Notes: generated from the letters alone by a model not told the origin. Counted from the stretch's first letter, positions 5,190-34,037 are shown. The stretch is DNA of 64,000 nucleotides from Alphaproteobacteria bacterium (GCA_021774575.1 JAJFIX010000023.1:4166-68165), one strand, 5' to 3'. Program-made: numbers and translations.

Positions 5190-5272
5190 GCTTTTTTAAA
5201 TGCTTCACGCCCTCCGCGCCTTTATCGGTGCGGGGGGCGCTTCATTTCGTCTTGAGATAGGAATATCGAAAC

Positions 5273-7760: not shown

Positions 7761-7891
7761 TTTCCCTGGGCTCGACTGCATCTTCATGTTTTGCCTTCGT
7801 AAGGCTCTTGGCGTATAAAATTTCACCATGTTCTGCAAACGATTGCACGAACATTCGTTCATGAGAGTTTTAAGCATTGAAGGGTGATCTA

Positions 7892-8848: not shown

Positions 8849-9484
8849 CTAGTTAACAGTGGGCGTAATTTGCGCGATTAAATCCTCGATAGAGCCGCCG
8901 TTTCGGCGCAAAATCGTTGCAAATTCCGTCTTCTGGGACTGCAGAAAACTCTTATTATTGATCGCTAAATCCAGCACCTTCGGCTGGCCTTCAATAACGT
9001 CGATAGTCCAGATAATAGGCGACGAAAAATGATCGGTCACCAGGACCGTGTTGACTTCAAATCTCCGGTTCTCGGATTCAGGACTATCGATTTCATTTGT
9101 GGCAAATATCTCGAAATGCCCGGTTGTTGGGAGGTTATCAACAACTGTGCTCGCCACAAATTCGGTCAAGGCGACAATGAAATGTTCTTTTTCCTCGTCG
9201 CTTGCAGTGATCCAGTGGCGGCCGAGGGTCAGCCGGGCAATCGCTTCCGTGGCGAAGGACGTGGTAAATGTGTCGCGCATCGCGGCGCGGCGCTCCAGGG
9301 GCTCAAGGGACGCATCCGTCAGCGCTGTAACGCCCTGCGCAGTCAAAACCTGGATAAATTGAGGGGCAACTAGGCTATTTGAGCTGCCAGCCCCGTCGGG
9401 CATTGCTGTAACCGGCTGACTGATGGTGAGAAGCATCAACGCCCAGGCGGCGCACGCAATAAAATGCCTTGCGCCTGCGGTCAT
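8849..9484 (-). CDS. MlaC/Ttg2D-family periplasmic lipid-binding protein (paralogue 1)
   Basis: Signal peptide. Aligns by eye to E. coli MlaC ('LTLGRHWITASDEEKEHFIVALTEFV' ~ '[26 protein letters not shown]'). Confidence 0.7.
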   Translation of the reverse strand: MTAGARHFIACAAWALMLLTISQPVTAMPDGAGSSNSLVAPQFIQVLTAQGVTALTDASLEPLERRAAMRDTFTTSFATEAIARLTLGRHWITASDEEKEHFIVALTEFVASTVVDNLPTTGHFEIFATNEIDSPESENRRFEVNTVLVTDHFSSPIIWTIDVIEGQPKVLDLAINNKSFLQSQKTEFATILRRNGGSIEDLIAQITPTVN

Positions 9485-9778
9485 TATTTTACCACTTAGA
9501 GGTGAGTTGCCGTCATTGGTTTGTTTGTTCATCAGGCGGGTCACTTCGAATTTGTTATTATCACTGAGGTGACGAACTGATATTGGGTATCTGAAATAAC
9601 AGAATACCCAGCAAGGGCTGATCGATGGCAGCCAGCGAGAGCCGCCTCGGCACCAGGGGACATTACCCCATAATTTAGTTGCTGAGAAAGCGCAAATTAG
9701 GGAAAATCGTTGCTATTAGGTCACAAATGGACCTGAAGTGCTGTGGATAGATGTGCTCTGGTTTTCGGGAGGCGGCGG

Positions 9779-10576
9779 TTATCCTGCGATTTCATCGATT
9801 AAGGCCGGGATTGATCCTCCCACTTGCCGTAAGATTTCGGCAAATTCCGCGCGTTGGGTCAGCAGGAAACTGCGCCCAGCAAAGGTTGCATCAAGTATGC
9901 GCAATTTGCCGTCGGTGGTAACCACGGACCACAAGACCTCGCCCTGGACGTCTGCGGATGAAAACAAGGACCTTACTTCAATGAGCGTGTCGGTCCGCTC
10001 CACCGCATCGACCTGACGTGCCGAAACAACCTCGATTCGGCCGTTCGGCGGAAATCCCTCAATGAGTTGCTTGGCCAGAAAACCGCCCAGGATTGCTCTA
10101 AATTGATCGCGTTCTCCCTCGTCGGCCTTGTTCCAGGCGCGGCCGAGGACGATCCGACTAATTTCCTGGGTAGCGAACTTTTGGTCGAAGAGATCACTGA
10201 AAAATTGACGCAATAGAGCCGGGCTGTTGGTTTGGTCGTTAAGCGCCGTAATGCTCGTCTGGGCGAGGTCGTTGATAAATTCTGGGGCTAGAGCAATAGA
10301 ATCCTGGCCATTCTGCGCCAATTGCAAAGGGGTGGCGGAGTTGATGGATCGCATATGTTCGGGCGACGATGGTGGGCCGGCCGCTAAGGGGGGCGTTACC
10401 AATGCTGCAGTTATTGCGATTAAAATACCTGCTCCGGCCGCAGTCCTCACAGAACTTGCGAGCAGGGATACGAAATATTTAGCCAACAGATTATTAGGAT
10501 ATTTCACTGAGCACCTATTCGTTAATGTTTTCGATTTTGCCGAAACGGCGAAAATTTGGAATTTAAAAATATTCAT
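9779..10576 (-). CDS. MlaC/Ttg2D-family periplasmic lipid-binding protein (paralogue 2)
   Basis: Same domain signature ('IVLGRAWNKADEGERDQFRAILGGFL'). An alternative GTG start at 10450 gives a cleaner signal peptide. Confidence 0.65.
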   Translation of the reverse strand: MNIFKFQIFAVSAKSKTLTNRCSVKYPNNLLAKYFVSLLASSVRTAAGAGILIAITAALVTPPLAAGPPSSPEHMRSINSATPLQLAQNGQDSIALAPEFINDLAQTSITALNDQTNSPALLRQFFSDLFDQKFATQEISRIVLGRAWNKADEGERDQFRAILGGFLAKQLIEGFPPNGRIEVVSARQVDAVERTDTLIEVRSLFSSADVQGEVLWSVVTTDGKLRILDATFAGRSFLLTQRAEFAEILRQVGGSIPALIDEIAG

Positions 10577-10606
10577 GCTGGCGCGAATGGCGCAGCTGTT
10601 TTGCGG

Positions 10607-11341
10607 CTAACGCCCCAATGTTTCAATGAGTCCATCCAAAGATCCTCCATTGCGTTGGAGAATGCGGTCAAAATCTCCCTTTTGCCCGAGAAGAAAGCTC
10701 GTCCGGGCAAAGGTAATATCAAGTATTTTCATTTCACCATCGACCGTTGCCACGATCCATGGAACTCTGGCGGAAAAATTTTGGCCGACAAAAACGGTCA
10801 CTACTTCGGTCTGCGGTAAGCCGAGCTCCGATTGTCCGGCCAGGGAGGCGCCGCGTACCTGAAAGCGACCATCGGGCACCCGGTCAATGATGACGTCGGC
10901 CAAGTGGATCGCCAGCACATCAAGAAAGGCGTCGCGCTGCTCTATCGATGCCGTTGACCAGATGCGACCGAGGACCGCCTGGCCGATTTGCTCCGACGCA
11001 AAAGCCGAGGAAAAAATTTGGCGAAATATCTCATGGGCCAATTGCCGACTTGTCTGGGCTTGGGTCAACGCGGCAAGACCCGCATCGATCACGGTGTCGA
11101 CGAAAATTGACGCGACATTGGTCGGGTCATCTGGCGCCTGAAAAATCCAGCGCGGCCCAATCGGTGTCGCGTTTTGGTTCGCAATTGGGCGAGCGGTCTC
11201 GGCAAAGCCAATGCTTGAAGTGAAAATTGCCACAGCTAGGCAAAATGCCAAACTCGCACCCGCTGTCGCAACAGGGCCGAAGGACACGAGAATTGCCGCG
11301 CCTGCGCGCCTAATTGAGTTATGTATAAATACTGTATTCAC
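10607..11341 (-). CDS. MlaC/Ttg2D-family periplasmic lipid-binding protein (paralogue 3)
   Basis: Same domain signature ('AVLGRIWSTASIEQRDAFLDVLAIHL') with an N-terminal signal/anchor. Confidence 0.65.
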   Translation of the reverse strand: MNTVFIHNSIRRAGAAILVSFGPVATAGASLAFCLAVAIFTSSIGFAETARPIANQNATPIGPRWIFQAPDDPTNVASIFVDTVIDAGLAALTQAQTSRQLAHEIFRQIFSSAFASEQIGQAVLGRIWSTASIEQRDAFLDVLAIHLADVIIDRVPDGRFQVRGASLAGQSELGLPQTEVVTVFVGQNFSARVPWIVATVDGEMKILDITFARTSFLLGQKGDFDRILQRNGGSLDGLIETLGR

Positions 11342-11671: not shown

Positions 11672-11685
11672 TTGACCTGGATCAA
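11672..11685. promoter_or_regulatory. FNR/FixK-type box TTGAC-CTGG-ATCAA (one mismatch to TTGAT-N4-ATCAA)
   Basis: Palindrome read directly. Lies in the 500 bp AT-rich divergent intergenic region ~165 bp upstream of the beta-propeller gene. Confidence 0.45.
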
Positions 11686-11742: not shown

Positions 11743-11756
11743 TTGATGCATGTCAA
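11743..11756. promoter_or_regulatory. FNR/FixK-type box TTGAT-GCAT-GTCAA (one mismatch)
   Basis: Second palindrome ~93 bp upstream of ATG 11843. An FNR-type regulator is encoded in the same cluster. Confidence 0.45.
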
Positions 11757-11842: not shown

Positions 11843-13240
11843 ATGACCCCTAAACTATCAAAACTTTTTCGACTCGTTATTGCCCCGGCGGCTCTGTCTG
11901 TTGCGCTCATGGTTCAGCCGGTGGCCGGATCGTTTGCGCAATCCGACGGCCCCGGCGATGGTTGGACAACGCCGCTTGCCGAGCAACTCGGTGTTCGATT
12001 GGTCCAACGGTTCGATTCCTCGGGTGAAGATGCCTGGGATCCGCTAGCCCATCCCAACGTCTTTATTACAACCGAGGGGCCCGGATATGGCGGCCTGTTA
12101 AGTGGTGTCACCCAGCCGGGTATCGCTATTATTGACTCCGATACCCGTGAAGTTGTGGCTCATCAGAGCTATGACGTTCTCGCCCTTGGCTGGGAAAATG
12201 TGTTCGAACCCCACGGGCTCGGCGTTTCTCCTGACGGGCAATGGATTTATCTGCCAAGTGGCGAGGGATCCTTTTCCTCGGTCGGCAAAGGTCGGTTGCT
12301 GGTCATTAACGCGCGCACACTGAAACTGGACAAAATTTTAGGACTGCGCGGTCAACCCCATCACGCCAAATCCTTCACGATGCCGGACGGAACGGGCCTT
12401 GCCTATGTTTATGGCTGGGGCCAACCGATGTTTGCGATGGACCCCAGTGATGATAATCGCGTTGTCGGGGGATTGGATTTCAATGCAATGGGTATCGAGG
12501 GATATCTATATTTTGCCTCCCCCGAGGGCGACGAGATCATTGCCAGTGGGCGTTTTCGACGCGGTGTAGCGAGAAATGAGTTACATGGCAATGTGATGGT
12601 TCGCATCGATACGTCTGACTGGAGCTTGATTGACTATGTTCCAGTTGCTGACAGCACCCCTGTCTGGGTCTCTTTTAGCGCAGACGGCGAGAATGCGTAT
12701 TTCAGCGGTGGTCACTCTAGCCTCGTATTCAAATACGACCGGATCGGGGACGAGGTGACGTCGCACGCACGCGCTGGCGTTGAAGGTCCGTACGGTGTGC
12801 ATTTAGGTTGGGATGACACCTTCCTTTATGCGGTTGGCAAGGGCGAAGGATCCCACAATCGCGGTAAAGTATTGGGGCTTATCAATACCGATCTGATGGA
12901 TAGGTCAACCCGGCCAATGGATCAGTTTACGACAAACTGCTTGCGTGGCGATCACGGCACGCTTCATCCTGATCCGGATGCGAATGAGTTGTGGATTACC
13001 TGCAATTCGAGCTTTGAAATTGTGGTTTTTGACCTCGACCGTAACGAAGTCTCAGCCAGAATTCCGATGCCGAACGGTGGTAGCACTCACTCCGGCTCTT
13101 TCCTTCAATATGCAGGCTGGAATGGCGAAGTCGTCGCCGACCAGAACGGGCTTCAAGGCAGCGCACTTACCCTGAAGCGCCAACTGCTCGGGTTGGAGGG
13201 TGCCGAAACGGTGCCCGCCGATGAGCTAGTGGGCGACTAA
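11843..13240 (+). CDS. secreted beta-propeller protein of unknown function (SBP56/MtoX-like or NosZ-propeller-like; unresolved)
   Basis: AAGGAG RBS 8 bp before ATG 11843 and a Sec-type signal peptide. Blade-like repeats ('AYFSGGHSSLVFKYD', 'ELWITCNSSFEIVVFD'), an HH pair, no Cys-rich site. Confidence 0.5.
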   Translation: MTPKLSKLFRLVIAPAALSVALMVQPVAGSFAQSDGPGDGWTTPLAEQLGVRLVQRFDSSGEDAWDPLAHPNVFITTEGPGYGGLLSGVTQPGIAIIDSDTREVVAHQSYDVLALGWENVFEPHGLGVSPDGQWIYLPSGEGSFSSVGKGRLLVINARTLKLDKILGLRGQPHHAKSFTMPDGTGLAYVYGWGQPMFAMDPSDDNRVVGGLDFNAMGIEGYLYFASPEGDEIIASGRFRRGVARNELHGNVMVRIDTSDWSLIDYVPVADSTPVWVSFSADGENAYFSGGHSSLVFKYDRIGDEVTSHARAGVEGPYGVHLGWDDTFLYAVGKGEGSHNRGKVLGLINTDLMDRSTRPMDQFTTNCLRGDHGTLHPDPDANELWITCNSSFEIVVFDLDRNEVSARIPMPNGGSTHSGSFLQYAGWNGEVVADQNGLQGSALTLKRQLLGLEGAETVPADELVGD

Positions 13241-13344
13241 CGGATCGGCGACGGTAGGAGATACCGTCACCAACACGTCAGAAGGGGGATAGCCCCGCTA
13301 TCCCCCGCCTCTTCAAACCACTGCCCAATTCAGAATTTAGCAAA

Positions 13345-14616
13345 ATGTTTGCGCGACGAATGACCAAGGAGATGGCTGTGCTGAACAAACTGAAATCGAA
13401 TGCCGGATTAGGTGTCATTGCCGGAGCGGCCATTTGCACCACTGCAATTTTCCTTGTTGTTTCAAGCAGCGCCCAATCCCAAGCGCCTGCGATCAGCGAC
13501 GCGTCGCCGCAAGTTGAAAACGGCCGGGACATATTTATGACAGCGGGGGGCGTTGGTTGTGCAGCCTGTCACGGAATTTTTGGTGAAGGCGATGTCGGCA
13601 TCGGCCCTTATGCGCGCGGTGTGAATAGGGCGTCGATCGACGCGGCGCTAGAATCCATTGCCGAAATGTCCTTCCTTCGAAGTTCGGTACGCGGCCAATC
13701 CATCGACGATATTGCTGCCTATACGGAGTGGCTCGGCAATCATCAACTGGTAAAGACCCTCGCCAAGCGCGGCCGTTTTATTCCCGACAGCGTATCCGTC
13801 CGTCCAAACACATTGATCCAGCTGGTTATATCTAATGCCAGCCGGTTTCCCCGCACCTTTGCCAGTGACGATATGGGTATCGGTGAGATTTCCGTGGATG
13901 GACGTGAGGTCGCAGAAATTATCTGGACGTCGCCTAGTGAGGAGGGAACTTTCACCCTACGTTGCTTGGATTGCCGGATTACCGATCAGCAACTTTCTAT
14001 CCAAATTTCGAATGACGCTGCGCCCTTCACCCCCGTTTCTGGGCCACCGGTTGAGGTGGCGAATACGCCTGCACCAGCCGTTCAGACAGCGGCGGATTTG
14101 GACTTGATCGACCGCGGTCGAGATATTTTTCTCAATGCCGGTGAGGTGGGGTGCACGGCCTGTCATGGCTCTTACGCCGAAGGCGATGTTGGAATTGGTC
14201 CTTATAATAGAGGCCTCGATGAAGACGATATTCGTCTGGCGTTGGCTAATGTCGATGCGATGCGTTTCCTGCAGCAACAACTAGACGATGAACAAATTCA
14301 TCAAGTCGCTGCCTATTACGGATGGCTGGGTGATCACCAGCTTTTCAAAACGCGCATGATCCGTGGGCAATTCTTTCCGAATAGAATTCGGGTGGCGCCG
14401 GGGGCGGCTATTCAGTTGGCGATTACCAATCGCGCTCGTTCCCCTGGTGCATTTTTTAGCGCCGACATGGGGATTGAACCCTTCGTTGTCCAAGGTTTGG
14501 AGACGGTCGATTTTTTCTGGACCGCGCCAAGGGTTGAAGCCGAATTCACCCTGCGCTGCGCCGATTGCGCGACATCAGATTGGCTGACCATCGAGACGAC
14601 GCAGGCTGCACGATAG
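13345..14616 (+). CDS. periplasmic di-heme c-type cytochrome with internally duplicated [cyt c + cupredoxin-like] modules
   Basis: Two CxxCH motifs ('CAACHG', 'CTACHG'), each followed by 'GEGDVGIGPY'. Two ~90 aa beta-sandwich-like modules sharing 'DMGI' and 'LRCxDC' but lacking His ligands. Start uncertain (13345, 13372 or 13378). Confidence 0.6.
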   Translation: MFARRMTKEMAVLNKLKSNAGLGVIAGAAICTTAIFLVVSSSAQSQAPAISDASPQVENGRDIFMTAGGVGCAACHGIFGEGDVGIGPYARGVNRASIDAALESIAEMSFLRSSVRGQSIDDIAAYTEWLGNHQLVKTLAKRGRFIPDSVSVRPNTLIQLVISNASRFPRTFASDDMGIGEISVDGREVAEIIWTSPSEEGTFTLRCLDCRITDQQLSIQISNDAAPFTPVSGPPVEVANTPAPAVQTAADLDLIDRGRDIFLNAGEVGCTACHGSYAEGDVGIGPYNRGLDEDDIRLALANVDAMRFLQQQLDDEQIHQVAAYYGWLGDHQLFKTRMIRGQFFPNRIRVAPGAAIQLAITNRARSPGAFFSADMGIEPFVVQGLETVDFFWTAPRVEAEFTLRCADCATSDWLTIETTQAAR

Positions 14617-14635
14617 GGCAGGAAAGGGAAAAGCT

Positions 14636-16063
14636 ATGACAAATTTGAATGTCGCCAACCGCCCGTCCTTCAAGCCCGTCCGAAGAACTTGGGCCGCTGT
14701 GGGCCGATCCTGGGGAGGGTCGCATCCCCGGCTGGTCGCAATTTTTTCCTTACTTGCCGCTCTCGTCGTCTCGTCTGCTTGGCTAGCATTTCCCTATATT
14801 CTTGAAGGCCGTGGGCTCATTGCCGATGTCGGCGACACGGTGCAGACCGAGCGCCGCGACCGCGCGACTACGGTCGGGCAGCTGCTCACCCGTTATGCCG
14901 ATGGGCTGGGCGGGGCGGAAATCGACATGCTCTACGCGACACCGCGTTTTTTCGAAATCGCGGGGCAAGCCTCAAGCTATGATCAATACCGGCCCGATCA
15001 ATACATTGTGTTTATGATTAATGAGACGACCCATATCGAGGACCTGCCGCAACAGTTGCCCGAGGCGACCTTGATCGTCGATGGAAAGACGTATCAACCG
15101 GTCGATATTGAAGGGCCCATTGATGTCGTTCACCATCGATCCTCAACGGTTCGTTTTGCCGCGATTGACGCCAATGGCCAGCCGATTATTCCTGCCGATA
15201 CAAGCGAAATTGAACTCAGCCTTGTCGGCGATTGGGGCGACGCCGGGATGCCACGTACCGCATCATGGGATTTGCCGATCGATTATGCCGAGACCTATGA
15301 CGCAGGAATTTGGACACCTGTGATGGTTTTTGCCCTTGCGGCGGGCTTGTTGTCGGCAGTTTTGACCCCGTGTTTGCTGCAATTGCTGGCGGTTTATTTT
15401 GTCACCCTTGTTGGAGTTTCGGCTGAGAGTGGTGGTGGTAGTGGCAGTGCTTCTGCCTCCGGCCCTGGGGGCCGAAAAATGTTATATGCAGCGCTGGCGT
15501 TTGTGGCCGGTTTTACAGTTCTCTACACGGTTGCGGGTGCCGCGATCGGCTATGCCGGCAAGGAAATGCAGATATTGTCTGCCGAATGGAGCCGTCACGT
15601 TGGCATTGCGTCGGGACTTTTGATCATTGCAATGGCAATTTGGTTCGGTATCAGGTCGCGGGCACCGATGGTCTGTAAAATCCCGTTGCCCGGCGCGGTT
15701 GCTCGGTTTGACAAACGCGGCGTCATCGGCTCGGCGCTCGTCGCCGCCGGTTTTTCGCTGGGCTGCATGACATGCTTTAGCGGTGCGATTGTCGCGACCC
15801 TCCTCGTCTATGTCGGTGCGTTGGGGAGTGCCTCAATCGGAGCACTGGTTCTCTTCCTGTTCTCGATCGGTGTTGGAATTCCGTTCTTGGCCGGAGCGCT
15901 GTTCCTGTCCCGAGCCACTCGGGCAATGGCATGGGTGTCGAAATTTTCGCCCCAGATCGGTTTCGTTTCGATGGTGCTGATGGCTGGGTTCGGCGTGCTC
16001 CTGATTACCGATAATTTTCACGAAGTGAGCAATCTCATTTACCCATGGCTCGGTTTGGGGTGA
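14636..16063 (+). CDS. DsbD/CcdA-family transmembrane thiol-disulfide electron transporter with a Cys-free periplasmic N-terminal domain
   Basis: TM1 'AAGLLSAVLTPCLLQLL' matches the CcdA 'LSPCxLP' motif. A later 'GCMTCFSG' carries the second Cys pair. The ~230 aa N-domain has no Cys. Confidence 0.6.
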   Translation: MTNLNVANRPSFKPVRRTWAAVGRSWGGSHPRLVAIFSLLAALVVSSAWLAFPYILEGRGLIADVGDTVQTERRDRATTVGQLLTRYADGLGGAEIDMLYATPRFFEIAGQASSYDQYRPDQYIVFMINETTHIEDLPQQLPEATLIVDGKTYQPVDIEGPIDVVHHRSSTVRFAAIDANGQPIIPADTSEIELSLVGDWGDAGMPRTASWDLPIDYAETYDAGIWTPVMVFALAAGLLSAVLTPCLLQLLAVYFVTLVGVSAESGGGSGSASASGPGGRKMLYAALAFVAGFTVLYTVAGAAIGYAGKEMQILSAEWSRHVGIASGLLIIAMAIWFGIRSRAPMVCKIPLPGAVARFDKRGVIGSALVAAGFSLGCMTCFSGAIVATLLVYVGALGSASIGALVLFLFSIGVGIPFLAGALFLSRATRAMAWVSKFSPQIGFVSMVLMAGFGVLLITDNFHEVSNLIYPWLGLG

Positions 16064-16102
16064 ACCGGAATGCTGGTTGATTGGTTCCAATTTGGAGGTA
16101 GG

Positions 16103-16447
16103 AAAATGAAAAAACTTTTGATCCATGCGGCTTTGGCATTCTTTGTCCTGACGCCGGTTGTCCTGGCGTCAGGGGCAGCAAATGCGGCCGAGCGCGATAT
16201 CACGTTGACTGTTCTCATGACTTGCCCGACGTCCGAACCACCGTTGGTCCGAAAAACGCTGCTTGACGTCAATGGCGTGAGCGAGGTCGCGGTATCCTAT
16301 TCAGACAAAAATGCATATGTGATTTTCGATGATGCGGTGACGAATGAAATGGAACTGATTGCCGCGATTAATGAGATTGGGCTGCGGACGTCACGTGATG
16401 AGGATGGGGGGGATATGGAAGCCATGGATGATATGAGCGAAATGTAA
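16103..16447 (+). CDS. small periplasmic HMA-like (ferredoxin-fold) protein with degenerate 'MTCPTS' site and Met-rich C-terminal tail
   Basis: Signal peptide. 'ITLTVLMTCPTSEPPL..VSEVAVSY..AYVIFDD' mirrors the HMA 'GMTCxxC' layout but with a single Cys. C-terminus 'MEAMDDMSEM' is an MxxMxxMxxM motif. Confidence 0.5.
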   Translation, partial: KMKKLLIHAALAFFVLTPVVLASGAANAAERDITLTVLMTCPTSEPPLVRKTLLDVNGVSEVAVSYSDKNAYVIFDDAVTNEMELIAAINEIGLRTSRDEDGGDMEAMDDMSEM

Positions 16448-16490
16448 AAATTGATCGCTCGGGCTTGAGCAAGAGACACGAGGGCAGAAA

Positions 16491-17660
16491 ATGACAAGTT
16501 TCAAATCAATGATGGTCTTAAGCGCCGGATTTCTCCTTTTGGGTACGGCGGTTGCATTCGCTGTGCGAGAACCAAATGTGTCGCTCGCCGTTAGTGATAT
16601 TGAAAAATATGTGTTCGTTCCCAGTTTGGGGTCGGCCGACATTACGGTGATTGACAGTCGGAATAATTCTGTTGTCGGGACGATTGATCTTGACGAAATC
16701 CCGGACCGGTTGGTCGTGTCTTCCGCCGTCGGCCAGCTTATTGTCAGCAATCTAGAAAGTCGCACCGTTACATTGATCGATATAGAGACCGGCGATGAGA
16801 CTGCCGAGATCGCCCTAGATATAACGCCGCAATCCCTGGTCATGAGCCCCGAGGGGTATCTGGTCGCTGTGAGCGATGTTGATGCCGGCGTCGTCGCCGT
16901 GATTTCGTTGCACCGTGGCGTTGAAGTTTCGAGGATAGACAATCTTTCGGCGCCCTCTGGGTTAACTTTCAGCGATGATGGGTCGTTACTTTATGTTCCA
17001 GATGGTGCGTCAAATTCGATCAAACTTATCGATATCGTCCAAGGTAGGGCGTTTGGGGAGTTACCACTATCTGCTGGCAACCCTGATGGAGTAGGCGACC
17101 CGGAAATGCTCAGCGCCGTCACCAGAAGTGCCAATGGTCGCTTTGGCTTTTGCGCCATCGGTCATGCCGAGGAGCTTGCCATATTTGATTTTGGAACCGA
17201 GCAACGGGTCAAGACGCTCAAATTGGGTAACCAGCCTTCGCGGCCTTTCGGCACCGCGGATGGGCGATATATTATGGTGGCAAACAACGGTGATCGCACC
17301 GTGTCGATTATTGATACGCAGACCTTTGATATTGCCGCAACGCTGCCCGGGGCCGCCGATGTTACAGCAATTAACACCGGTTGGTTTGAGACCGTGGCCT
17401 TCGTCATCAGCGAAAGTGAGGACAAAGCGATCATCCTCGACCTCATGGATTTACGTAAATCTGGTGAGATTGAATTACCGAGTTCTCCCGGTCCAGGTGT
17501 CGTGACTCCCGACGCAGCGACACTTTATGTTGCGCTTAGCGATACCGATAGCGTCGCGGTGATCGATACACGGTCACGCCGGGTGACGGCAATTATCGAT
17601 AATGTAGGAACCCAGCCGCGAGGCGCGACAATGGCGCGAACGAATAATTATTGCCATTAG
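16491..17660 (+). CDS. YVTN-family beta-propeller repeat protein (NirF / cytochrome-d1-domain-like, no heme c motif), periplasmic
   Basis: Signal peptide. Roughly 40-residue repeats ('LYVPDGASNSIKLIDI', 'YIMVANNGDRTVSIIDT', 'LYVALSDTDSVAVIDT'). Confidence 0.6.
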   Translation: MTSFKSMMVLSAGFLLLGTAVAFAVREPNVSLAVSDIEKYVFVPSLGSADITVIDSRNNSVVGTIDLDEIPDRLVVSSAVGQLIVSNLESRTVTLIDIETGDETAEIALDITPQSLVMSPEGYLVAVSDVDAGVVAVISLHRGVEVSRIDNLSAPSGLTFSDDGSLLYVPDGASNSIKLIDIVQGRAFGELPLSAGNPDGVGDPEMLSAVTRSANGRFGFCAIGHAEELAIFDFGTEQRVKTLKLGNQPSRPFGTADGRYIMVANNGDRTVSIIDTQTFDIAATLPGAADVTAINTGWFETVAFVISESEDKAIILDLMDLRKSGEIELPSSPGPGVVTPDAATLYVALSDTDSVAVIDTRSRRVTAIIDNVGTQPRGATMARTNNYCH

Positions 17661-17704
17661 GCCCGACACCCTAGGTCAGCAACAAACTCGGGAGGTTGTG
17701 CAAA

Positions 17705-18361
17705 ATGAAAGAAAATTTTCGCCTTGGAATATATGGCAGCCTGGGACTGCTGCTTTGCGCCGCTACCGTAGCCGCCCTGTTGCTGATTAATAATCGCTTG
17801 GCGCCTGAAATCTCGGATCCGCCGCTTGAAATTGATGCGGCAATTATCGACCCAGGGGGACCATTTGCACTGGTCGATCATCAAGGAAAATCGGTAACCG
17901 ACCGTGATTTTCTCGGTCGATATCTACTGGTTAATTTTGGTTATACATTCTGTCCCGACATTTGCCCCACGACGCTCGGCCAAATTACCGTCGCGATGGA
18001 CCTGCTCGGTGAGAATGCGAACAAGGTTCAACCCGTGTTTATCACCGTCGATCCGGAGCGGGACTCAATTGAAGTTTTGGCCCGCTATATGAATTTTTTT
18101 CACCCTCAATTGATCGGCTTGACCGGCTCATCCGACCAGATCGCCAATGTCGCCCGGGTCTATATGGTTCACTACGCCCAGGCCGAGAGGGTCGAAGAGG
18201 CAAGCTATTATTCGGTCGATCACAGTAGCTTCATATACCTCATGGGGCCGGAAGGAGAATTTAGGGACGTCATTGCTTATGGAACTCTACCGCAGGAAAT
18301 GGCGTCGCTCATTGAGCGCCATATTTCAAACGATAGCTCGGCGTCCGGGGACGGCCAGTAA
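17705..18361 (+). CDS. SCO1/SenC-family copper chaperone (thioredoxin-like)
   Basis: GGGAGG RBS then ATG 17705. N-terminal TM anchor, 'FGYTFCPDICP' CxxxC motif and a downstream conserved His ('VDHSSF'). Confidence 0.85.
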   Translation: MKENFRLGIYGSLGLLLCAATVAALLLINNRLAPEISDPPLEIDAAIIDPGGPFALVDHQGKSVTDRDFLGRYLLVNFGYTFCPDICPTTLGQITVAMDLLGENANKVQPVFITVDPERDSIEVLARYMNFFHPQLIGLTGSSDQIANVARVYMVHYAQAERVEEASYYSVDHSSFIYLMGPEGEFRDVIAYGTLPQEMASLIERHISNDSSASGDGQ

Positions 18362-18414
18362 GGGGAAAGCCAGATAGCCGGATAACCGGGGTAACGAAGA
18401 TTGGAGGTAAATCC

Positions 18415-19194
18415 ATGCCAATGAAAAAGCAAAAAGATCCACTTTGCGGCATGATACTTCATGCAGAGCGTGGCAAATGCGCTTCCTGCGAAGTTCGGGC
18501 ACTCTCAATCTGCGCGCCTCTGGATCGGTCCGCTCTGGAAGTGCTGGCTGACTTGTCGGAGGTGGTAAATTTTAGGAAGGGTGACAGTATCTGCGCCGAA
18601 GGCGATCCGGTGGATTATTTTTTTACCGTGCAGTCCGGGGCACTGAAGACGTGTCGGTTACAGTCGGGGCGCCGTGACCTTGTGACCGGCTTTTTGTTTG
18701 GCGGAGATTTCCTCGGCCTGGCATTCTTTGCCGGGCAAATTGAGGCGGATACTCATTACCCATATGCCGTCAGGGCCTTAAGCAAGGGCCGCCTGTGTCG
18801 GCTGCCAAGACAGGCATTTTCCAAATTCATTGCCGATTATCCGCTTATTGAGAAACAAATTTTGGCAAAAATTTCGTTGAAACTGGAGCAGGCGGAAAAT
18901 CATATCCTGTTGCTTGGCAGAAAGAATGCGCGAGAAAAAATCTCTTCTTTCATTTTGCAACTTGATGACGCGCAGAGATTTGCTCGTCAAAATCTGGAGA
19001 GTGATTTTCAAGGTGTCGATACCGTTGATTTTCCTTTGGCGCGCCATGATATTGCCGATTACCTGGGAATGACTCCCGAAACAGTCAGCCGTGCCTTAAC
19101 TCAGCTGAAGGAAGACGGCTTGATCCGGCAACTCAGCTCACGCTGTGTTGCGCTCGTCCAGCGACAAATGTTGGAAGAGATAGCCGCAGGGTAG
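18415..19194 (+). CDS. Crp/Fnr-family transcriptional regulator, FnrN-like (N-terminal Cys cluster)
   Basis: N-terminal 'C..CASCEVRALSIC' (C-x2-C-x7-C plus an upstream Cys). cNMP-like beta-roll and a C-terminal HTH 'ETVSRAL' with the E--SR FNR-specificity residues. Confidence 0.8.
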   Translation: MPMKKQKDPLCGMILHAERGKCASCEVRALSICAPLDRSALEVLADLSEVVNFRKGDSICAEGDPVDYFFTVQSGALKTCRLQSGRRDLVTGFLFGGDFLGLAFFAGQIEADTHYPYAVRALSKGRLCRLPRQAFSKFIADYPLIEKQILAKISLKLEQAENHILLLGRKNAREKISSFILQLDDAQRFARQNLESDFQGVDTVDFPLARHDIADYLGMTPETVSRALTQLKEDGLIRQLSSRCVALVQRQMLEEIAAG

Positions 19195-19220
19195 ACGGGG
19201 GGTTAGGTGTTCAAAAAGAA

Positions 19221-19260
19221 GCCCCGCCAGCTGGATGAAGCTGACGGGGCCTGTATTTTT
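19221..19260. terminator. bidirectional rho-independent terminator between the convergent fnr-like and cytochrome c genes
   Basis: Stem 'gccccgccagc' / 'gctgacggggc' (~10 bp, one G-T pair), 8 nt loop. Flanked by an A-tract 5' and 'ctgtattttt' 3'. Confidence 0.6.
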
Positions 19261-19275
19261 GTGATCGATACGGGT

Positions 19276-19641
19276 TTATTGAGTGGCTAGAAATTCAACA
19301 ATGTCGGCGGCGTCTTGGGCATCTCCGACGCCGGGAAAGGCCATGCTGGTGTCGGGTACGAGTACTTGAGCCTCGGCAATGTACAGCAATAGCGTCTCTT
19401 CATCCCAGGTGAGACCAGATCCTTTCATCGCGTCGGAATATTCGAAATCGGCGAGGTCGGCCGCGGGTCGTCCGATAACACCGGCCAGGCTCGGCCCGAT
19501 GATATTTTCGCCAGCCGTCAAAGAATGGCACGCAGCGCAGACCTGAAACAGGTCTTCACCCCGCGCGGCGTCTTGGGCCAGTATAGGCGTTCCGCTCGCC
19601 AGCACTATTGCGGTCGCCATTATTGATATTGTTGCTTTCAT
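19276..19641 (-). CDS. class I c-type cytochrome (c2/c550-like), periplasmic
   Basis: Signal peptide, single 'CAACHS' heme motif and a Met sixth-ligand region. 121 aa. Confidence 0.85.
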   Translation of the reverse strand: MKATISIMATAIVLASGTPILAQDAARGEDLFQVCAACHSLTAGENIIGPSLAGVIGRPAADLADFEYSDAMKGSGLTWDEETLLLYIAEAQVLVPDTSMAFPGVGDAQDAADIVEFLATQ

Positions 19642-20082: not shown

Positions 20083-20531
20083 GAGGTGGCGCCTATTTGC
20101 AACACCCAAATGAACTATTCCATATAATTCGGTCGAGCTATAGATTTGTTGGGCCCGTGAGTTGGTGCAACTACAAGACCGACTGAACTGTCCTAAGACC
20201 GTTGTGCAGTCTGAACTTTATGAAGGTTTTTCAATTCAATTTACGTCGCTGGAACGGCTCAAAAGTGGCCCAATTTGGGGGTCGGTTATCGAGCCGATTG
20301 CCTGTGGAAAAAACATGGTTTCATCCACAGGGCTGTGTACTGTTCTGAGTTGTGGCGAGACCGTGGCTTGGACATCGGGGGAATCAATGAATATCGAAAC
20401 ACTGCCTTCAGCGGCAGTGTGCTGCTCTTGGCAAGGTATAACCTGTCGGGGTTGCGCAAATGTGGGGGCGTGCTTTGGACGATAACCGTTTTCGATCGCG
20501 GTTATTTGGCCGGCCGTTTTCTTGCCGATTA

Positions 20532-23500
20532 ATGCAATACAGAAATGACGGGCCTTCGAGGTCATTTCTGCATTTGGCTGCAGTCGCGCTCTTTTCTGCG
20601 TCACTTTTGGGCTTTGGCGGAGATGCTGTTGCGCAGAGCGTGGATTGGGTGCTCAACCTCAACGACACCGGCTCCGATCCGACCGCCGCCGGTGGAACCA
20701 TCACCTACAATATCAACGTTTCCAATAACGGGGCCGACCCAGCACCAGTGACGACGATCGATCTCGACGTGCCCGCAGGGACAACGCTCGCGGCGACGAG
20801 CGGGACGATCACCGGGTGCGCACCGGTCCCGACTGCCGGGCCTGCCACCGTTACCTGTACGATTCCGGCATTGGCGGCGGGGGGGGCTGTCGATCTGTCA
20901 GCCGATGTCGTTCCGGTCGCTTCGGGAACTGTGACCATCGGCGCGCACGTGCCGACCACCGTGGGCGCAGTAACCGATTTCGATACGGCTAACAACGATC
21001 AAACTGAAAACACGACGATTACCGCAGGGGCGGATGTCGAATTGCTGATTTCCGGGCCAGCCACAGCGGCTTCGGGCAGCCAGATTAGTTACAGCTTTGA
21101 TGCAACCAATAACGGCCCCGATCCGGCGTCAAACCTGACCCTGAGTTTTCCTATACCGACGGGGGTTTCCAACATCACCGAACCGCCGGGCTGTTCCCTG
21201 TCTGCGAGCACCTATACTTGTGCGGTCTCAGGGCCTCTCGCGCCGGGTGCCAGTGTCTCGCTGGTTTTTGACGTTCAGATTTCCGCTGCCTCCGGGTCGA
21301 CGGTGACGCCGGTCGCAACTATCTCCGTCGGCTCGCCAGTTGATCCGCTGGCCAGCAACAACACCGACAGTCTCGACACAGATATCACAGCGGGAACCGA
21401 TCTTCGTATCACCAAATCGCGGAGCCCATCGGGCACGCTTCTGGTTGGCGATACCGTAACCTTCACCCTTGCTGGAAGCTACACCGGTGACGACCCCAGC
21501 GGGATCACAATAACCGACACCATCCCGGCAATCTACGCCATCCAATCGGTTACGCCGTCTGCCGGTAGCGGGTTTGCCTGCACCGTGACCTTGCAGGATA
21601 TTTCCTGCTTGCGGGCGACAGGTGCTGGTCCGGGGGGCAATGTTTCCTTGGGCTCTATCTCCATTGTGGCAACAGCCATAACGGCAGGATCGGCTGTTAA
21701 TACAGCGACCATCGTCGCGACAGGCCCTGTTGATTCAAACCTCTCAAACAATAGCGACACCGACGGCGGTGCGACAATCCAAGATCCAACTGTCGATCTG
21801 CGGGCGAACAAGTCCGGTCCAAATCCGCCGCTCATTGTTGACGGCAATAGTTATGATTTTTCGATCAGCGCTACCAATATCGGCAATGCAGATTTTTTCG
21901 GTACGATCGTTCTAACCGATAGTCTGCCGGCGGGGTTGACGGCGACCGGATTTGTCTTGAACGGATGGACTTGCGCGCCGGTTCCCGCAGCAGTGTTGCC
22001 CATTGCGGGCCCAGCGGTGATTGAATGCACGCAAATTTTTACCTCCGGAAGTCCACTCGCCTCCGGTGCGACGACTTCGAGTGCCGTTATACAGACGACG
22101 GCCACTGCGTCGGGAACCATCACCAACAGTGTCACGGTCTCTTCCCCCGATGCAAATATTGCAGACAGCAATTCTGGCAATGACGTTGCGACCACGACCG
22201 TTACCGGCAGCACACTCGGCGCCTCGGCCGATATTCTCGTCGAGAAGACGGCTAGCCTTGCCACACTGCCGGCAGGCGATGTGCAGACCTTTACCCTTCG
22301 TGTGGTCAATAACGGTCCCATCGCTTCAGCCAACATTACTCTCACCGACAGTCTGTCCGGATTGATCAACAATTCGGTGGGGCCGACCGGTGCTGGGTTG
22401 ATCAGCGTCGACGACACTTCGTCGGTAGGGTTGGCTACGGGGCTGACATGTTCCACCGCCTCGTCGGGGGGCAGCTCTCGCCTCTTGACCTGTACCATCG
22501 TGAATTTGCCGGTCTGTGTGGGCGCCGACTGCCCGATCATCACTGTGCAAGTTCGCCCCGGCGGCAATGGCGGTTCGCGGACCAACACAGCCGACGCTAT
22601 TTCTTCGGTCACCGTCGATTCCGATCTGACGAATAATTCGGCCAGCGCTACTTTCACAGTAGAGCCCCGCGCCGATATGACCGTGACCAAGGTCTCGTCG
22701 CCGTCTCCGGCTACCGCCGGGCAAGATCTGACCTATGTTCTCACCGCGCGAAATATCAGCAATGGTCTCAGTGCTGCAGCGAGTGTGACGATAACCGATA
22801 CGCTGCCGAACAATGTAACTTTTGTCTCCGCATCGCCCTCGGCTGGGAGCTGCACGACCACGCCGATACTCAATTCGACGACCGGTGCTGGCAACAATAC
22901 GGTGAGCTGTTCTCTTGGCACGATCAATAACGGCGCCCAGCGGACGGTGACGATTGTCACGCGGCCGAACTTCGTGACCCGCGGCACCACTCTTTCCAAC
23001 AATGTGACCGTTGCCACGACGACGATCGAGACCGATGGCACCAACAATTCGGCGATCAATCTGACCCCGGTTGTGGTTCCTGTGCTCGACCTTCTGGTAA
23101 ACAAGACCGATAGCGTCGACCCTGTCGCGGTTGGGGATGACACGGTCTTTTCTATTTCGGTGCAGAATATTGGCCCATCGGCGGCTGAAAACGTCGTTTT
23201 TACCGATGTTATGCCGCCGTCTCGGCTGAGCTTCCAATCTGTCATCGTCTCAGCGGGGGGGAGCTGCCTAACGGTTCCTGCGGTCGACAGCTTCGGGCAA
23301 ACCCTTGAATGCGACTTTCCGCGGCTTCTTGCGGGCACCTCGGAGACAATAACGGTCACCATGCGGGGCACCGAAAAGGGTACAGTATTCAACACAGCCG
23401 ATGTGACGTCCGATGAGGTTGTCGCCGGATTTGATACCAACACCACCAACAATAATGTAATGGAGCAGACGACGGTCCGTTCCAAGGCAGACCCCGAAGT

Positions 23501-34034: not shown

Positions 34035-34037
34035 GGG

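What the first reader, a model, noticed from the sequence alone, without database searches (positions are those of the whole stretch)
11843..19641. Unassigned FNR-linked periplasmic copper/heme redox operon
Seven co-oriented genes followed by a convergent cytochrome c encode: a secreted beta-propeller, a novel di-heme protein, a CcdA/DsbD-type reductant conduit, a single-Cys HMA-like protein with a Met-rich tail, a YVTN/d1-like propeller, SCO1/SenC and an FnrN-type regulator. Every component is exported. Several are copper-trafficking hallmarks (SCO1 CxxxC, the MxxMxxMxxM tail, the CcdA Cys pair). The rest are electron-transfer hallmarks (three CxxCH hemes in total). The set does not match nos (no nosDFYL, no CuA motif), mau, sox, nir or cytochrome oxidase assembly clusters as I know them. 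One hypothesis is a methanethiol-oxidase-like (SBP56/MtoX) module, which is known to sit beside SCO1 genes. Another is a divergent NosZ-propeller-like enzyme served by a dedicated di-heme partner. Either would be a low-oxygen-induced periplasmic oxidoreductase system with its own maturation kit.
Basis: partly seen in the sequence, partly recalled or inferred. Interest (0 to 1): 0.78.

Follow-up and report, generated by a model that had tools for sequence, protein, structure and literature searches.

The report
Uncharacterised periplasmic copper-type propeller oxidoreductase operon
This is a real, widely conserved gene cluster for an unstudied secreted enzyme, a histidine-lined propeller protein paired with a heme/cupredoxin electron carrier and copper-handling helpers, built on the same logic as nitrous-oxide reductase but unrelated to it in sequence, and its substrate is unknown.

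Summary
All eight ORFs exist as described.

**Conserved core.** This is g1 (propeller), g2 (cytochrome c + cupredoxin-like module, duplicated here) and g3 (DsbD-type membrane protein with a His-bearing periplasmic domain). g5 (YVTN propeller ending in an invariant Cys-His) and g6 (SCO1) join them in Proteobacteria. The order is kept in about 17 proteobacterial loci. The g1/cytochrome c/g3 core recurs in several other phyla, and almost all carriers are uncultured.

**Not a known family.** g1 has no Pfam hit. It matches no NosZ, thiocyanate dehydrogenase or SBP56/MtoX sequence. The family scores at most 30 bits against the clade III L-NosZ model (cutoff 700).

**What points to a redox cuproenzyme.**
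- The g1 model is a confident 7-bladed lactonase-type propeller.
- Six to seven histidines are conserved, at or next to inner-strand starts, in one same-face loop and before a C-terminal hairpin.
- Relatives are fused to cytochrome c, cupredoxin-like or canonical blue-copper domains.
- Neighbours elsewhere include PCuAC, CopD/YtkA, SufS/SufU and rhodanese.

**Local features.** The FNR regulator (g7), cytochrome c550 (g8) and the HMA-like g4 are not conserved partners. Two near-consensus FNR boxes sit upstream of g1.

**Verdict.** An uncharacterised periplasmic, probably copper-dependent oxidoreductase with its own maturation kit. The substrate is unknown. The MtoX hypothesis is rejected. The NosZ resemblance is analogy, not membership.

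The parts
11672..11685 (.). FNR/FixK-type box 1 (TTGACCTGGATCAA), about 165 nt upstream of the g1 start
   Evidence: one mismatch to TTGAT-N4-ATCAA. Only 4 such one-mismatch sites exist in the 64 kb window, and 2 of them fall in this 500-bp intergenic region.
11743..11756 (.). FNR/FixK-type box 2 (TTGATGCATGTCAA). If it is centred at -41.5, the transcription start falls near 11791, about 52 nt before the ATG
   Evidence: The class II promoter geometry is inferred, not shown.
11843..13240 (+). g1: secreted (Sec-type signal) 465-aa lactonase/YVTN-type beta-propeller of an uncharacterised family. Proposed catalytic subunit with conserved His124, 173, 174, 338, 371, 375 and 416
13345..14616 (+). 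g2: tandem duplication of a [c-type cytochrome + cupredoxin-like] module. Proposed electron-transfer partner. The cupredoxin-like domains keep C-x2-C and Met but lack the classical His ligands
14636..16063 (+). g3: membrane protein with a periplasmic N-domain (invariant E130, H133, H166, H167, R168) and a DsbD/CcdA-type transmembrane domain (invariant C246, C347, C377-x2-C380)
   Evidence: Conserved next to g1/g2 across phyla.
16106..16447 (+). g4: secreted HMA/MerP-like small protein with a single Cys (LMTCP) and an acidic Met-rich tail. Lineage-specific accessory (the ORF could start at 16070)
   Evidence: HMA at 21.3 bits, below the cutoff; MerP and UxxU models below their cutoffs; a homologue in L001 only.
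16491..17660 (+). g5: secreted YVTN beta-propeller whose family ends in an invariant ...NN(Y/L)-Cys-His C-terminus. Proposed maturation factor or metallochaperone
   Evidence: TIGR02276 at 90.5 bits. C388 and H389 at least 90% conserved and present in 18 of 19 homologues; conserved position in proteobacterial loci.
17696..18361 (+). g6: membrane-anchored SCO1/SenC copper chaperone / thiol-disulfide oxidoreductase (CPDIC plus a conserved His)
   Evidence: PF02630 at 169.7 bits. C86, C90 and H176 conserved; conserved position.
18415..19194 (+). g7: CRP/FNR-family regulator with the N-terminal Cys motif C22-x2-C25-x7-C33. Local regulator, not part of the conserved cluster
   Evidence: no tblastn match in any related locus. 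CRP/FNR-family genes lie near the cluster only in L034 and L058.
19219..19252 (.). Strong hairpin terminator (14-bp stem) at the convergent g7/g8 junction. No comparable terminator lies inside g1-g7
19276..19641 (-). g8: secreted monoheme cytochrome c (c550/CycA-like). Convergent and not conserved with the cluster. A possible but unproven redox partner
   Evidence: CycA model at 82 bits, cutoff 240; no match in related loci.

Best explanation
**Proposed system.** g1 and g2 form a two-part periplasmic oxidoreductase of an uncharacterised family.
- g1 is exported unfolded through Sec and folds into a seven-bladed propeller.
- Its conserved histidines sit at or next to the starts of inner strands, in one same-face loop and just before a C-terminal hairpin. 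I propose they bind a multinuclear copper centre, possibly copper-sulfide, as in the CuZ site of nitrous-oxide reductase or the tri-copper site of thiocyanate dehydrogenase.
- g2 supplies c-type heme, plus a cupredoxin-like domain, to move electrons between the respiratory chain and g1.

**Maturation in the periplasm.**
- g3, a DsbD-type membrane protein, passes reducing power outward (or possibly copper).
- g6 (SCO1) inserts copper and keeps the ligand thiols reduced.
- g4 (HMA-like) and g5 (a propeller with a Cys-His tail) act as further metal-handling factors.

**Regulation.** In this genome the operon is switched on at low oxygen by the adjacent FNR-type regulator acting through two FNR boxes.

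**Shown versus inferred.**
- Shown: gene content, synteny, fold, residue conservation, domain fusions and the presence of the FNR boxes.
- Inferred: copper in g1, the role of each helper, the direction of electron flow and FNR control.
- The substrate is unknown. I lean slightly toward a small inorganic N or S compound handled at the oxic-anoxic interface.
For: **Conserved unit.** The order g1-g2-g3-g5-g6 is kept in about 17 proteobacterial loci. g1 + cytochrome c + g3 recurs in Chloroflexi, Acidobacteria and Ca. Acetothermia, and g1 + cytochrome c in Trueperaceae.

**Redox coupling.** Many homologues fuse g1 to the cytochrome c + cupredoxin-like module. More distant cousins fuse the propeller to a canonical H..C..H..M blue-copper domain or to cytochrome c.

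**Metal site.**
- H124, H173, H174 and H338 are invariant in 69 sequences that go down to 29% identity. H371 and H416 are conserved in 68 of 69, and H375 in 93%.
- H124, H173/174 and H371 lie at or within the first residues of inner strands. H338 lies in the loop between strands 327-332 and 343-348. H416 lies two residues before a C-terminal hairpin (DSSP).

**Copper context.**
- SCO1 scores 169.7 bits.
- PCuAC sits next to SCO1 in L005 and L028 and about 4 kb downstream in L015.
- YtkA-like and CopD-like genes lie in 8 and 6 loci, mostly Chloroflexi.

**Sulfur context.** SufS occurs in 7 loci, SufU in 4 and a rhodanese family in 5 (the representative read has a lipoprotein-type signal).

**Low-oxygen control.**
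- Two of the four one-mismatch FNR boxes in the 64 kb window lie upstream of g1.
- There is no strong terminator inside g1-g7.
- A GAF-PAS-HisKA_3 kinase lies next to the cluster in 21 loci and a NarL-type regulator in 19.
Against: - Nothing here shows copper or any other metal in g1. I could not read the model coordinates, so spatial clustering of the histidines is inferred from strand register only.
- The cupredoxin-like domains of this window's g2 lack the classical His ligands. They may not be electron-transfer copper sites.
- g4, g7 and g8 are not conserved with the cluster.
- Some gammaproteobacterial loci carry only g1-g2 with no maturation genes nearby (L009, L030, L031).
- The SufS/SufU and rhodanese neighbours could be coincidental or related to the substrate.
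- No substrate can be assigned. No denitrification or sulfur-oxidation genes co-localise with the cluster.
Confidence: 0.55

Rival explanations
1. g1/g2 is a respiratory reductase for a nitrogen oxide, most attractively N2O. It would be a NosZ analogue in which heme c, with or without cupredoxin copper, feeds a His-ligated copper-sulfide cluster in the propeller.
For: - NosZ-like modular logic: propeller + cupredoxin + cytochrome c, including single-chain fusions.
- Seven conserved His, the same number as the CuZ ligands.
- Sec export with periplasmic copper chaperones.
- Sulfur-donor genes (SufS/SufU, rhodanese) lie nearby.
- Hypoxia-type regulators: FNR boxes and the GAF-PAS kinase with NarL regulator.
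- Many carriers are Woeseiaceae, which from my own knowledge often lack nosZ.
Against: - No sequence homology to NosZ of clade I, II or III.
- The His order differs from NosZ, and there is no CuA motif.
- No nosR/D/F/Y/L and no nir/nor genes in any of the 80 neighbourhoods.
- Published structure-guided surveys defined clade III without this family, as far as the NCBIfam model shows.
Confidence: 0.17
2. g1/g2 is a dehydrogenase that oxidises a reduced sulfur or C1-sulfur compound and passes the electrons to cytochrome c. Candidate substrates are thiocyanate, methanethiol, DMS, sulfide and sulfite. It would be functionally like thiocyanate dehydrogenase or MtoX without being homologous to either.
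For: - Known copper propeller enzymes TcDH and MtoX act on such substrates. TcDH also has about seven active-site His and copC/copD neighbours (PMC6504805).
- CopD/YtkA, rhodanese and thiol-handling genes lie nearby here.
- In 9 gammaproteobacterial loci and in this window the cluster sits within a few kb of a highly conserved (68-76% identical) DddP-architecture M24 enzyme. ALDH, HIBADH-like, LacI or TRAP genes accompany it in most of these.
- The best PDB match for the cytochrome c domains of g2 is SorU, the sulfite dehydrogenase partner. The match is weak, E 0.011.
Against: - No homology to TcDH or SBP56.
- The signal peptide is Sec-type, not Tat as in TcDH.
- The M24 module is absent from the other phyla that carry the core.
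- No sox, dsr or cyanase genes lie nearby.
- FNR-type control is more typical of reductases, although it is also compatible with electrons passing to a cbb3 oxidase.
Confidence: 0.2
3. The cluster is not an enzyme system. It is a copper-trafficking or cuproprotein-assembly module, for example serving cbb3- or aa3-type oxidases at low oxygen, with the propellers acting as periplasmic metallochaperones.
For: - SCO1, PCuAC, an HMA-like protein and a DsbD-type protein are all assembly or trafficking factors.
- The g5 family ends in an invariant Cys-His.
- There is a precedent for a propeller metallochaperone: AztD, a weak NCBIfam hit for g5.
- The Cys/Met cupredoxin-like domain of g2 resembles the chaperone CupA in fold.
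- FNR control fits cbb3 biogenesis.
Against: - g1 is fused to cytochrome c and to canonical blue-copper domains in relatives. That implies electron transfer rather than metal delivery.
- g1 is strongly conserved, with six to seven near-invariant His and an invariant K333/E335 loop.
- No oxidase genes are adjacent in any locus.
Confidence: 0.08

Closest known systems
Nitrous-oxide reductase NosZ (clades I/II) with the nos accessory genes
   Same: - A periplasmic seven-bladed propeller proposed to hold a His-ligated copper centre.
- It works with a cupredoxin domain and, in some clade II enzymes, a fused cytochrome c.
- It needs dedicated periplasmic copper and sulfur maturation.
- It is regulated by hypoxia.
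   Different: - No detectable sequence homology.
- The order of the histidines differs.
- There is no CuA C-x3-C-x3-H-x2-M motif.
- Domain order in the fusions is propeller, then cytochrome c, then cupredoxin.
- nosRDFYLX is absent. The accessory set here is DsbD-type + YVTN propeller + SCO1, with PCuAC, CopD or YtkA in some relatives.
Clade III lactonase-type N2O reductase (L-NosZ; He et al., Nature 2025, cited in PMC13477213; NCBIfam NF052460)
   Same: - A lactonase-type propeller of about 470-480 aa.
- No canonical nos accessory genes, with cytochrome genes nearby (PMC13477213).
- Found mostly in uncultured lineages.
   Different: - g1 itself gives no hit to NF052460. Nine distant family members give at most 30 bits, and the cousins at most 69 bits, against a cutoff of 700. 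The matches are out of register.
- Host taxa differ: Woeseiaceae, Chloroflexi, Trueperaceae and Acidobacteria here, against Nitrospinota, Nitrospirota and Desulfobacterota for L-NosZ.
Thiocyanate dehydrogenase TcDH (PDB 5F75)
   Same: - A periplasmic seven-bladed propeller with a multi-copper site built from about seven His plus Lys, Glu and Asp.
- It donates electrons to a c-type cytochrome.
- copC/copD-type copper genes lie next to it (PMC6504805).
   Different: - TcDH is Tat-exported. g1 has a Sec-type signal.
- TcDH has no dedicated cupredoxin/cytochrome subunit and no DsbD-SCO1 set.
Methanethiol oxidase MtoX (SBP56) with SCO1/MauG neighbours
   Same: A secreted copper-dependent propeller enzyme encoded next to SCO1/SenC.
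   Different: - g1 has no SBP56 (Pfam) or MtoX (NCBIfam NF052453) match.
- There is no MauG.
- MtoX is an oxidase using O2. g1 is wired to heme c and a cupredoxin-like domain.
CcdA/ScsB-TlpA-ScoI-PCuAC copper-site maturation pathways
   Same: g3 (DsbD_TM with conserved Cys), g6 (SCO1) and, in relatives, PCuAC match the players that reduce and metallate CuA-type sites.
   Different: - Here they are embedded in an operon with a novel propeller enzyme, not with an oxidase.
- g3 carries an unusual His-bearing periplasmic domain with no Pfam match and no cysteines.

Membership tests
NosZ clade I/II | Sequence membership: NosZ models TIGR04244/TIGR04246 and similarity to solved NosZ chains | tested here: not met
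   - g1 has no hit in Pfam or NCBIfam.
- No NosZ chain appears with phmmer or with the A1 profile at E up to 10.
- hhalign against S. meliloti NosZ gives probability 0.44%.
NosZ clade I/II | CuA motif C-x3-C-x3-H-x2-M in a C-terminal cupredoxin domain | tested here: not met
   The g2 cupredoxin-like domains have C-x2-C, an invariant Met and no conserved His.
NosZ clade I/II | Seven His ligands lining the propeller centre (CuZ) | tested here: inconclusive
   Seven conserved His exist at or next to inner-strand starts, in one loop and before a C-terminal hairpin. Their order differs from NosZ, and the geometry could not be measured because no coordinates were available.
NosZ clade I/II | Adjacent nosR/nosD/nosF/nosY/nosL maturation genes | tested here: not met
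   pSymA NosR, Z, D, Y and L find nothing in the ORFs of the 80 loci or the window. Only generic ABC ATPase and regulator hits appear.
L-NosZ (clade III) | NCBIfam NF052460 score at or above 700 bits | tested here: not met
   g1: no hit. Nine distant family members: at most 30 bits. Cousins: at most 69 bits. g5: 43 bits.
Thiocyanate dehydrogenase | Sequence similarity to TcDH and its active-site set K103, H135, H136, H206, E288, D314, H381, H437, H482, H528 | tested here: not met
   No TcDH chain was found by sequence or profile search of the PDB. The residue set is taken from PMC6504805 and cannot be aligned to g1.
Thiocyanate dehydrogenase | Tat signal peptide | tested here: not met
   The g1 N-terminus MTPKLSKLFRLVIAPAALSVALMVQPVAGSFA has no twin-arginine motif (read directly from the sequence).
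SBP56 / methanethiol oxidase MtoX | Pfam PF05694 or NCBIfam NF052453 match | tested here: not met
   g1 returns no Pfam families and no MtoX hit.
SCO1/SenC (g6) | PF02630 above cutoff, with the CxxxC motif and the downstream His | tested here: met
   169.7 bits against a cutoff of 22.8. C86, C90 and H176 are at least 90% conserved among 15 homologues.
DsbD/CcdA transmembrane family (g3) | DsbD_TM above cutoff and conserved transmembrane cysteines | tested here: met
   43.7 bits against a cutoff of 27.1. C246, C347, C377 and C380 are at least 90% conserved in 29 sequences. Actual electron transfer was not tested.
Cupredoxin, type 1 or CuA site (g2) | Cupredoxin fold | tested here: met
   [not shown]
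Cupredoxin, type 1 or CuA site (g2) | His-Cys-His-Met ligand set (or the CuA set) | tested here: not met
   The window copies read SRFPRTF and RSPGAFF at the first-His position. Only Met and C-x2-C are invariant. Distant cousins do carry H..C..H..M.
FNR / FnrL / FixK regulators (g7) | cNMP-binding and Crp-type HTH domains, and an N-terminal Cys cluster for an oxygen-sensing [4Fe-4S] | tested here: met
   Pfam 62.6 and 60.5 bits. C22-x2-C25-x7-C33 is read from the sequence. The FnrL equivalog model scores 138 bits, below its 300 cutoff, so this is family-level membership only.
HMA / CopZ / MerP (g4) | HMA domain above cutoff with the GMxCxxC motif | tested here: not met
   HMA scores 21.3 bits, below the 24.8 cutoff. 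The MerP and UxxU models are also below their cutoffs. The motif is LMTCPTS, with one Cys.
Cytochrome cd1 / d1-heme propeller (g5) | Full-length Cytochrom_D1 match and heme d1 context (nirS, nirF, nirN, d1 biosynthesis genes) | tested here: not met
   PF02239 scores 29.2 bits over residues 212-378 only. The generic YVTN repeat model scores 90.5 bits. No nir genes occur in the window or the related loci.

The most novel reading that the evidence does not exclude
The g1/g2 family is a fourth, sequence-unrelated type of nitrous-oxide reductase, or more broadly a new enzyme built on a His-ligated copper-sulfide cluster. It would be assembled by a DsbD/SCO1/propeller pathway instead of NosDFYL. It would operate in abundant uncultured groups, including marine-sediment Woeseiaceae, groundwater Chloroflexi and SAR202, that current gene surveys would not score for this function.
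Probability: 0.12. Interest if true: 0.95.

Novelty: new variant of a known kind. Interest (0 to 1): 0.7.

Why it matters
Copper propeller enzymes are few: NosZ, thiocyanate dehydrogenase and methanethiol oxidase. Each turned out to control a step in the nitrogen or sulfur cycle.

This family is widespread.
- It has 366 clusters at 90% identity.
- The profile search found 84 representatives at E ≤ 1e-30.
- It occurs in 80 species-level genomes spanning about ten phylum-level lineages.

It has no name, no Pfam model and no solved or characterised relative. Many carriers are abundant, mostly uncultured sediment and groundwater bacteria.

The conserved partner genes give a concrete, testable hypothesis. 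They predict a periplasmic redox cuproenzyme with a new maturation route: a DsbD-type protein with a His domain, a propeller with a Cys-His tail, and SCO1.

If the substrate proves to be N2O, NO or a volatile sulfur compound, gene-based budgets for those compounds would need revising. Even if the substrate is mundane, the maturation pathway and the Cys/Met cupredoxin-like domain would be new copper biochemistry.

Tried and rejected
**Hypotheses tested and rejected**
- SBP56/MtoX identity for g1: no Pfam or NCBIfam hit.
- NosZ, TcDH or any solved relative by sequence: phmmer and the 38-sequence profile against PDB sequences found only a generic YVTN S-layer protein. hhalign against S. meliloti NosZ gave probability 0.44%.
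- L-NosZ membership: at most 30 bits for the family against a cutoff of 700.
- nos accessory genes near any homologue: none.
- A d1-heme/NirS-like reading of g5: only a partial hit, explained by YVTN repeats.
- True DddP identity for the neighbouring M24 enzyme: 108 bits against a cutoff of 600.

**Searches that led nowhere**
- Foldseek against the PDB gave only generic propellers.
- The AFDB50 fold library was unavailable.
- No homologue exists on any plasmid record.
- Look-ups of the source organism gave no name. Only a Logan run contig and an unnamed NCBI contig of 196,836 bases were returned.
- Literature searches found no description of this family. The Tenderiales Uet cluster has a cupredoxin and NHL propellers but is unrelated. 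The He et al. 2025 paper itself is not held.
- Rfam and tRNA scans found nothing in the operon region.

**Limits**
- Model coordinates could not be read, so His-His distances were not measured.
- I considered an eight-bladed reading from the strand count. I kept seven blades because about 290-300 residues superpose on 7-bladed lactonases at 2.4-2.9 Å.

Full report
**Observation.** ORF listing confirms seven co-oriented genes and a convergent eighth at 11843-19641.

Profile scans give the following.
- g1 (465 aa): no Pfam family at all.
- g2 (423 aa): two cytochrome c domains (CAACH, CTACH), each followed by a Cupredoxin_1-like domain.
- g3 (475 aa): a DsbD_TM domain after an N-terminal region of about 220 aa with no match.
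- g4: an HMA/MerP-like protein below all cutoffs, with one Cys and a DMEAMDDMSEM tail.
- g5: a YVTN-repeat propeller.
- g6: SCO1/SenC at 169.7 bits, with CPDIC.
- g7: a CRP/FNR-family regulator with an N-terminal C-x2-C-x7-C motif.
- g8: a c550-like monoheme cytochrome.

All products except g7 have signal peptides or membrane anchors. Gaps between the genes are 6-104 bp. The only strong terminator is the 14-bp-stem hairpin between g7 and g8. The description is therefore accurate, with three corrections. g2 is a duplicated cytochrome c + cupredoxin module. g7 is not exported. The HMA assignment is sub-threshold.

**Is it a conserved unit?** g1 has 366 homologous clusters in the large protein collection. 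They are 54-79% identical among the best 120, and all are named 'hypothetical' or 'YncE family'.

A scan of one genome per species returned 80 loci. Nearly all are MAGs, from these groups:
- Woeseiaceae, Porticoccaceae, Arenicellaceae and Halopseudomonas;
- alpha- and betaproteobacteria;
- Chloroflexi, including SAR202, Dehalococcoidia and Limnocylindria;
- Trueperaceae, Acidobacteria, Gemmatimonadetes, Symbiobacteriaceae, Ca. Acetothermia, Ca. Fraserbacteria and Acidimicrobiia.

The only isolate is Rhodobacteraceae bacterium Alg231_30.

tblastn with the window's proteins, together with an all-against-all clustering of locus ORFs, shows several things.
- The order g1-g2-g3-g5, usually followed by g6 where the contig extends far enough, recurs in about 17 proteobacterial loci.
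- g1 + cytochrome c + g3 recurs in many Chloroflexi, Acidobacteria and Ca. Acetothermia loci, and g1 + cytochrome c in Trueperaceae.
- Some gammaproteobacterial loci carry g1-g2 alone.
- g4 recurs only in the closest locus, L001.
- g7 and g8 have no tblastn match in any locus.
- CRP/FNR-family genes lie near the cluster only in L034 and L058.

**What g1 is not.**
- No SBP56/MtoX, NosZ or other named model matches it.
- Against all PDB sequences, g1 alone and a 38-sequence profile find only a generic YVTN S-layer protein. No NosZ or thiocyanate dehydrogenase chain appears.
- hhalign against S. meliloti NosZ, recovered from pSymA, gives probability 0.44%.
- The recently described clade III lactonase-type NosZ has an NCBIfam model, NF052460, with a cutoff of 700 bits. 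g1 gives no hit. Nine distant family members give at most 30 bits, in out-of-register repeat matches. Still more distant cousins give at most 69 bits.
- The literature I could reach describes L-NosZ in Nitrospinota, Nitrospirota and Desulfobacterota, without canonical nos genes and with cytochromes nearby (PMC13477213). It does not describe this family.

**What g1 looks like.** AlphaFold2 with the family alignment gives a confident model, with pLDDT 86.8 and pTM 0.86.
- The YVTN S-layer propeller follows.

In 69 family members down to 29% identity, conservation of the histidines is as follows.
- H124, H173, H174 and H338 are invariant.
- H371 and H416 are conserved in 68 of 69.
- H375 is 93% conserved and H70 is 91%.

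By the DSSP register:
- H124 sits immediately before the inner strand of its blade, at the x of a P-x-G motif;
- H173/174 and H371 lie within the first residues of theirs;
- H338 lies in the GKGEGSHN loop between strands 327-332 and 343-348, on the same face;
- H416 lies two residues before a C-terminal hairpin.

In propellers these positions surround the mouth of the central channel. That is where NosZ and thiocyanate dehydrogenase hold their copper clusters, and each of those also uses seven histidines (TcDH residue list from PMC6504805). The clustering here is inferred, because I could not read the coordinates.

**Evidence that it is a redox enzyme.** Many homologues are single chains of about 640-700 aa carrying propeller + cytochrome c + cupredoxin-like module.

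A profile search of 1.84 billion representatives found 84 proteins at E ≤ 1e-30 and 252 at E ≤ 1e-10. Among the distant full-length members:
- P0163, P0165, P0171, P0177 and P0180 fuse the propeller to a canonical blue-copper domain (H..C..H..M);
- P0192 and P0246 fuse it to cytochrome c.

Five histidines (124, 173, 174, 371, 416), K333, E335 and several aspartates are invariant even in these cousins.

**Evidence for copper and for maturation roles.**
- SCO1 follows the cluster in 14 loci.
- PCuAC sits next to SCO1 in L005 and L028, and about 4 kb downstream in L015.
- YtkA-like and CopD-like proteins replace them in eight and six loci, mostly Chloroflexi.
- The g3 family conserves E130, H133, H166, H167 and R168 in its periplasmic domain, and C246, C347 and C377-x2-C380 in the membrane.
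- The g5 family ends in an invariant Cys-His.
- SufS (7 loci), SufU (4) and a rhodanese family (5; the representative has a lipoprotein-type signal) are further recurrent neighbours. They could supply sulfur to a cluster or relate to a sulfur substrate.
- A secreted alpha/beta-hydrolase family occurs in 11 loci across Chloroflexi and alpha/betaproteobacteria. I cannot explain it.

**Regulation.** Two of the only four one-mismatch matches to TTGAT-N4-ATCAA in the 64 kb window lie in the 500-bp region upstream of g1, at 11672 and 11743. The second is placed suitably for a class II FNR promoter, which is an inference. In Chloroflexi a GAF-PAS-HisKA_3 kinase lies next to the cluster in 21 loci and a NarL-type regulator in 19. 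Both arrangements point to control by oxygen or a related signal. Neither is proof.

**Function.** The most likely reading is a periplasmic, copper-dependent oxidoreductase (g1 + g2) with a dedicated maturation kit (g3-g6). In this genome it would be switched on at low oxygen.

The direction of electron flow and the substrate are open.
- A NosZ-like reductase is suggested by the modular logic, the histidine count, the sulfur-donor neighbours and the regulators. Against it are the lack of homology and the absence of any nir, nor or nos neighbour.
- A TcDH/MtoX-like dehydrogenase for a sulfur compound is suggested by analogy and by a striking neighbour. The window's M24 enzyme (3846-5189) is 68-76% identical to M24 genes lying beside the cluster in nine gammaproteobacterial loci, in most of them with ALDH, HIBADH-like, LacI or TRAP genes. 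Its nearest named relatives are DddP DMSP lyases, but far below the family cutoff. This module is missing from other phyla.
- A pure copper-trafficking role is less likely because of the redox-domain fusions.

**Novelty.** No characterised or named family covers g1, and the accessory set is unlike nos, TcDH or MtoX clusters. The kind of system, a copper propeller enzyme with a cytochrome/cupredoxin partner, is known. I therefore rate it a new variant of a known kind. There is a modest chance that it is a genuinely new N2O-reducing or copper-sulfide enzyme.

Noticed in passing
window 2751-8827 (with ABC permeases at 53-1566 and a second M24 gene at 1385-2749): A catabolic module: an alpha/beta-hydrolase, a DddP-architecture M24 enzyme (3846-5189), an SSADH-like aldehyde dehydrogenase, a LacI regulator and a HIBADH-like reductase. 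The M24 protein is 68-76% identical to M24 genes lying within a few kb of the g1 cluster in nine gammaproteobacterial loci, which is more conserved than g1 itself. The gene order around it varies. The module may produce the enzyme's substrate, or it may simply travel with the cluster as an island.
   Followed up: partly
window 8849-11341 (minus strand): Three tandem paralogous secreted MlaC-domain proteins (231, 265 and 244 aa) lie directly upstream of and divergent from g1. They are not found next to the cluster in other genomes.
   Followed up: partly
window 20460-30791 (+): A giant 3443-aa secreted protein with nine matched DUF11 stretches, four DUF7507, and CARDB and SdrD_B domains. Its C-terminal region of about 700 aa looks like an outer-membrane barrel. 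It is probably an adhesin or surface protein.
   Followed up: partly
window 30992-41704: A urea/branched-chain-type ABC transporter followed by a urease cluster. UreE and UreF appear to be fused in one 401-aa ORF (39867-41072).
   Followed up: no
window 38298-38582 (minus strand): An Rfam 5_ureB_sRNA match (114.5 bits) antisense to the urease alpha-subunit gene. It probably reflects conserved coding sequence rather than a real sRNA in this organism.
   Followed up: no
window 45089-49516: A cluster of PepSY, DUF2271, a PepSY_TM-flavodoxin-NAD-binding reductase fusion (736 aa) and the ApbE flavin transferase. It follows an OmpR-type two-component pair at 42817-44807.
   Followed up: no
window 62606-63983 (minus strand): Nitrile hydratase alpha and beta subunits lie at the window edge. 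Thiocyanate hydrolase belongs to this family, so the pair is worth a look given the sulfur and nitrogen hypotheses for g1.
   Followed up: no
L052 11315-13032, L055 10024-11815, L038 17171-18424 and other Chloroflexi loci: A cysteine desulfurase (Aminotran_5) and an IscU/SufU-type scaffold lie directly downstream of the g3 homologue. This could mean a dedicated sulfur supply, for example for a copper-sulfide cluster.
   Followed up: partly
L001 16220-16978, L005 10319-11116, L057 6485-7384, L061 11352-12368 and 7 further loci: A secreted alpha/beta-hydrolase-like protein (GxSNGG motif; no Pfam hit at E ≤ 0.001 for the one representative scanned) recurs next to the cluster in Chloroflexi and in alpha/betaproteobacteria. 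It is absent from this window. Its role is unexplained.
   Followed up: partly
L052 8825-11101, L061 12907-15174, L067 11578-13434: The g3 homologues are enlarged in other phyla. In Chloroflexi (L052, L061) they gain an extra N-terminal membrane segment and two copies of the His-bearing periplasmic domain. In the acidobacterial locus L067 a canonical cupredoxin (EHH...C..H) is fused in front.
   Followed up: partly
window 13345-14616 versus L015 11403-12044 and other gammaproteobacterial loci: g2 is a two-module tandem duplication in alpha- and betaproteobacterial versions (the window, L001, L005, L021). It is a single module in gammaproteobacteria. The first-His position of the cupredoxin is variable: H in many gammaproteobacterial copies, R or G here.
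   Followed up: yes
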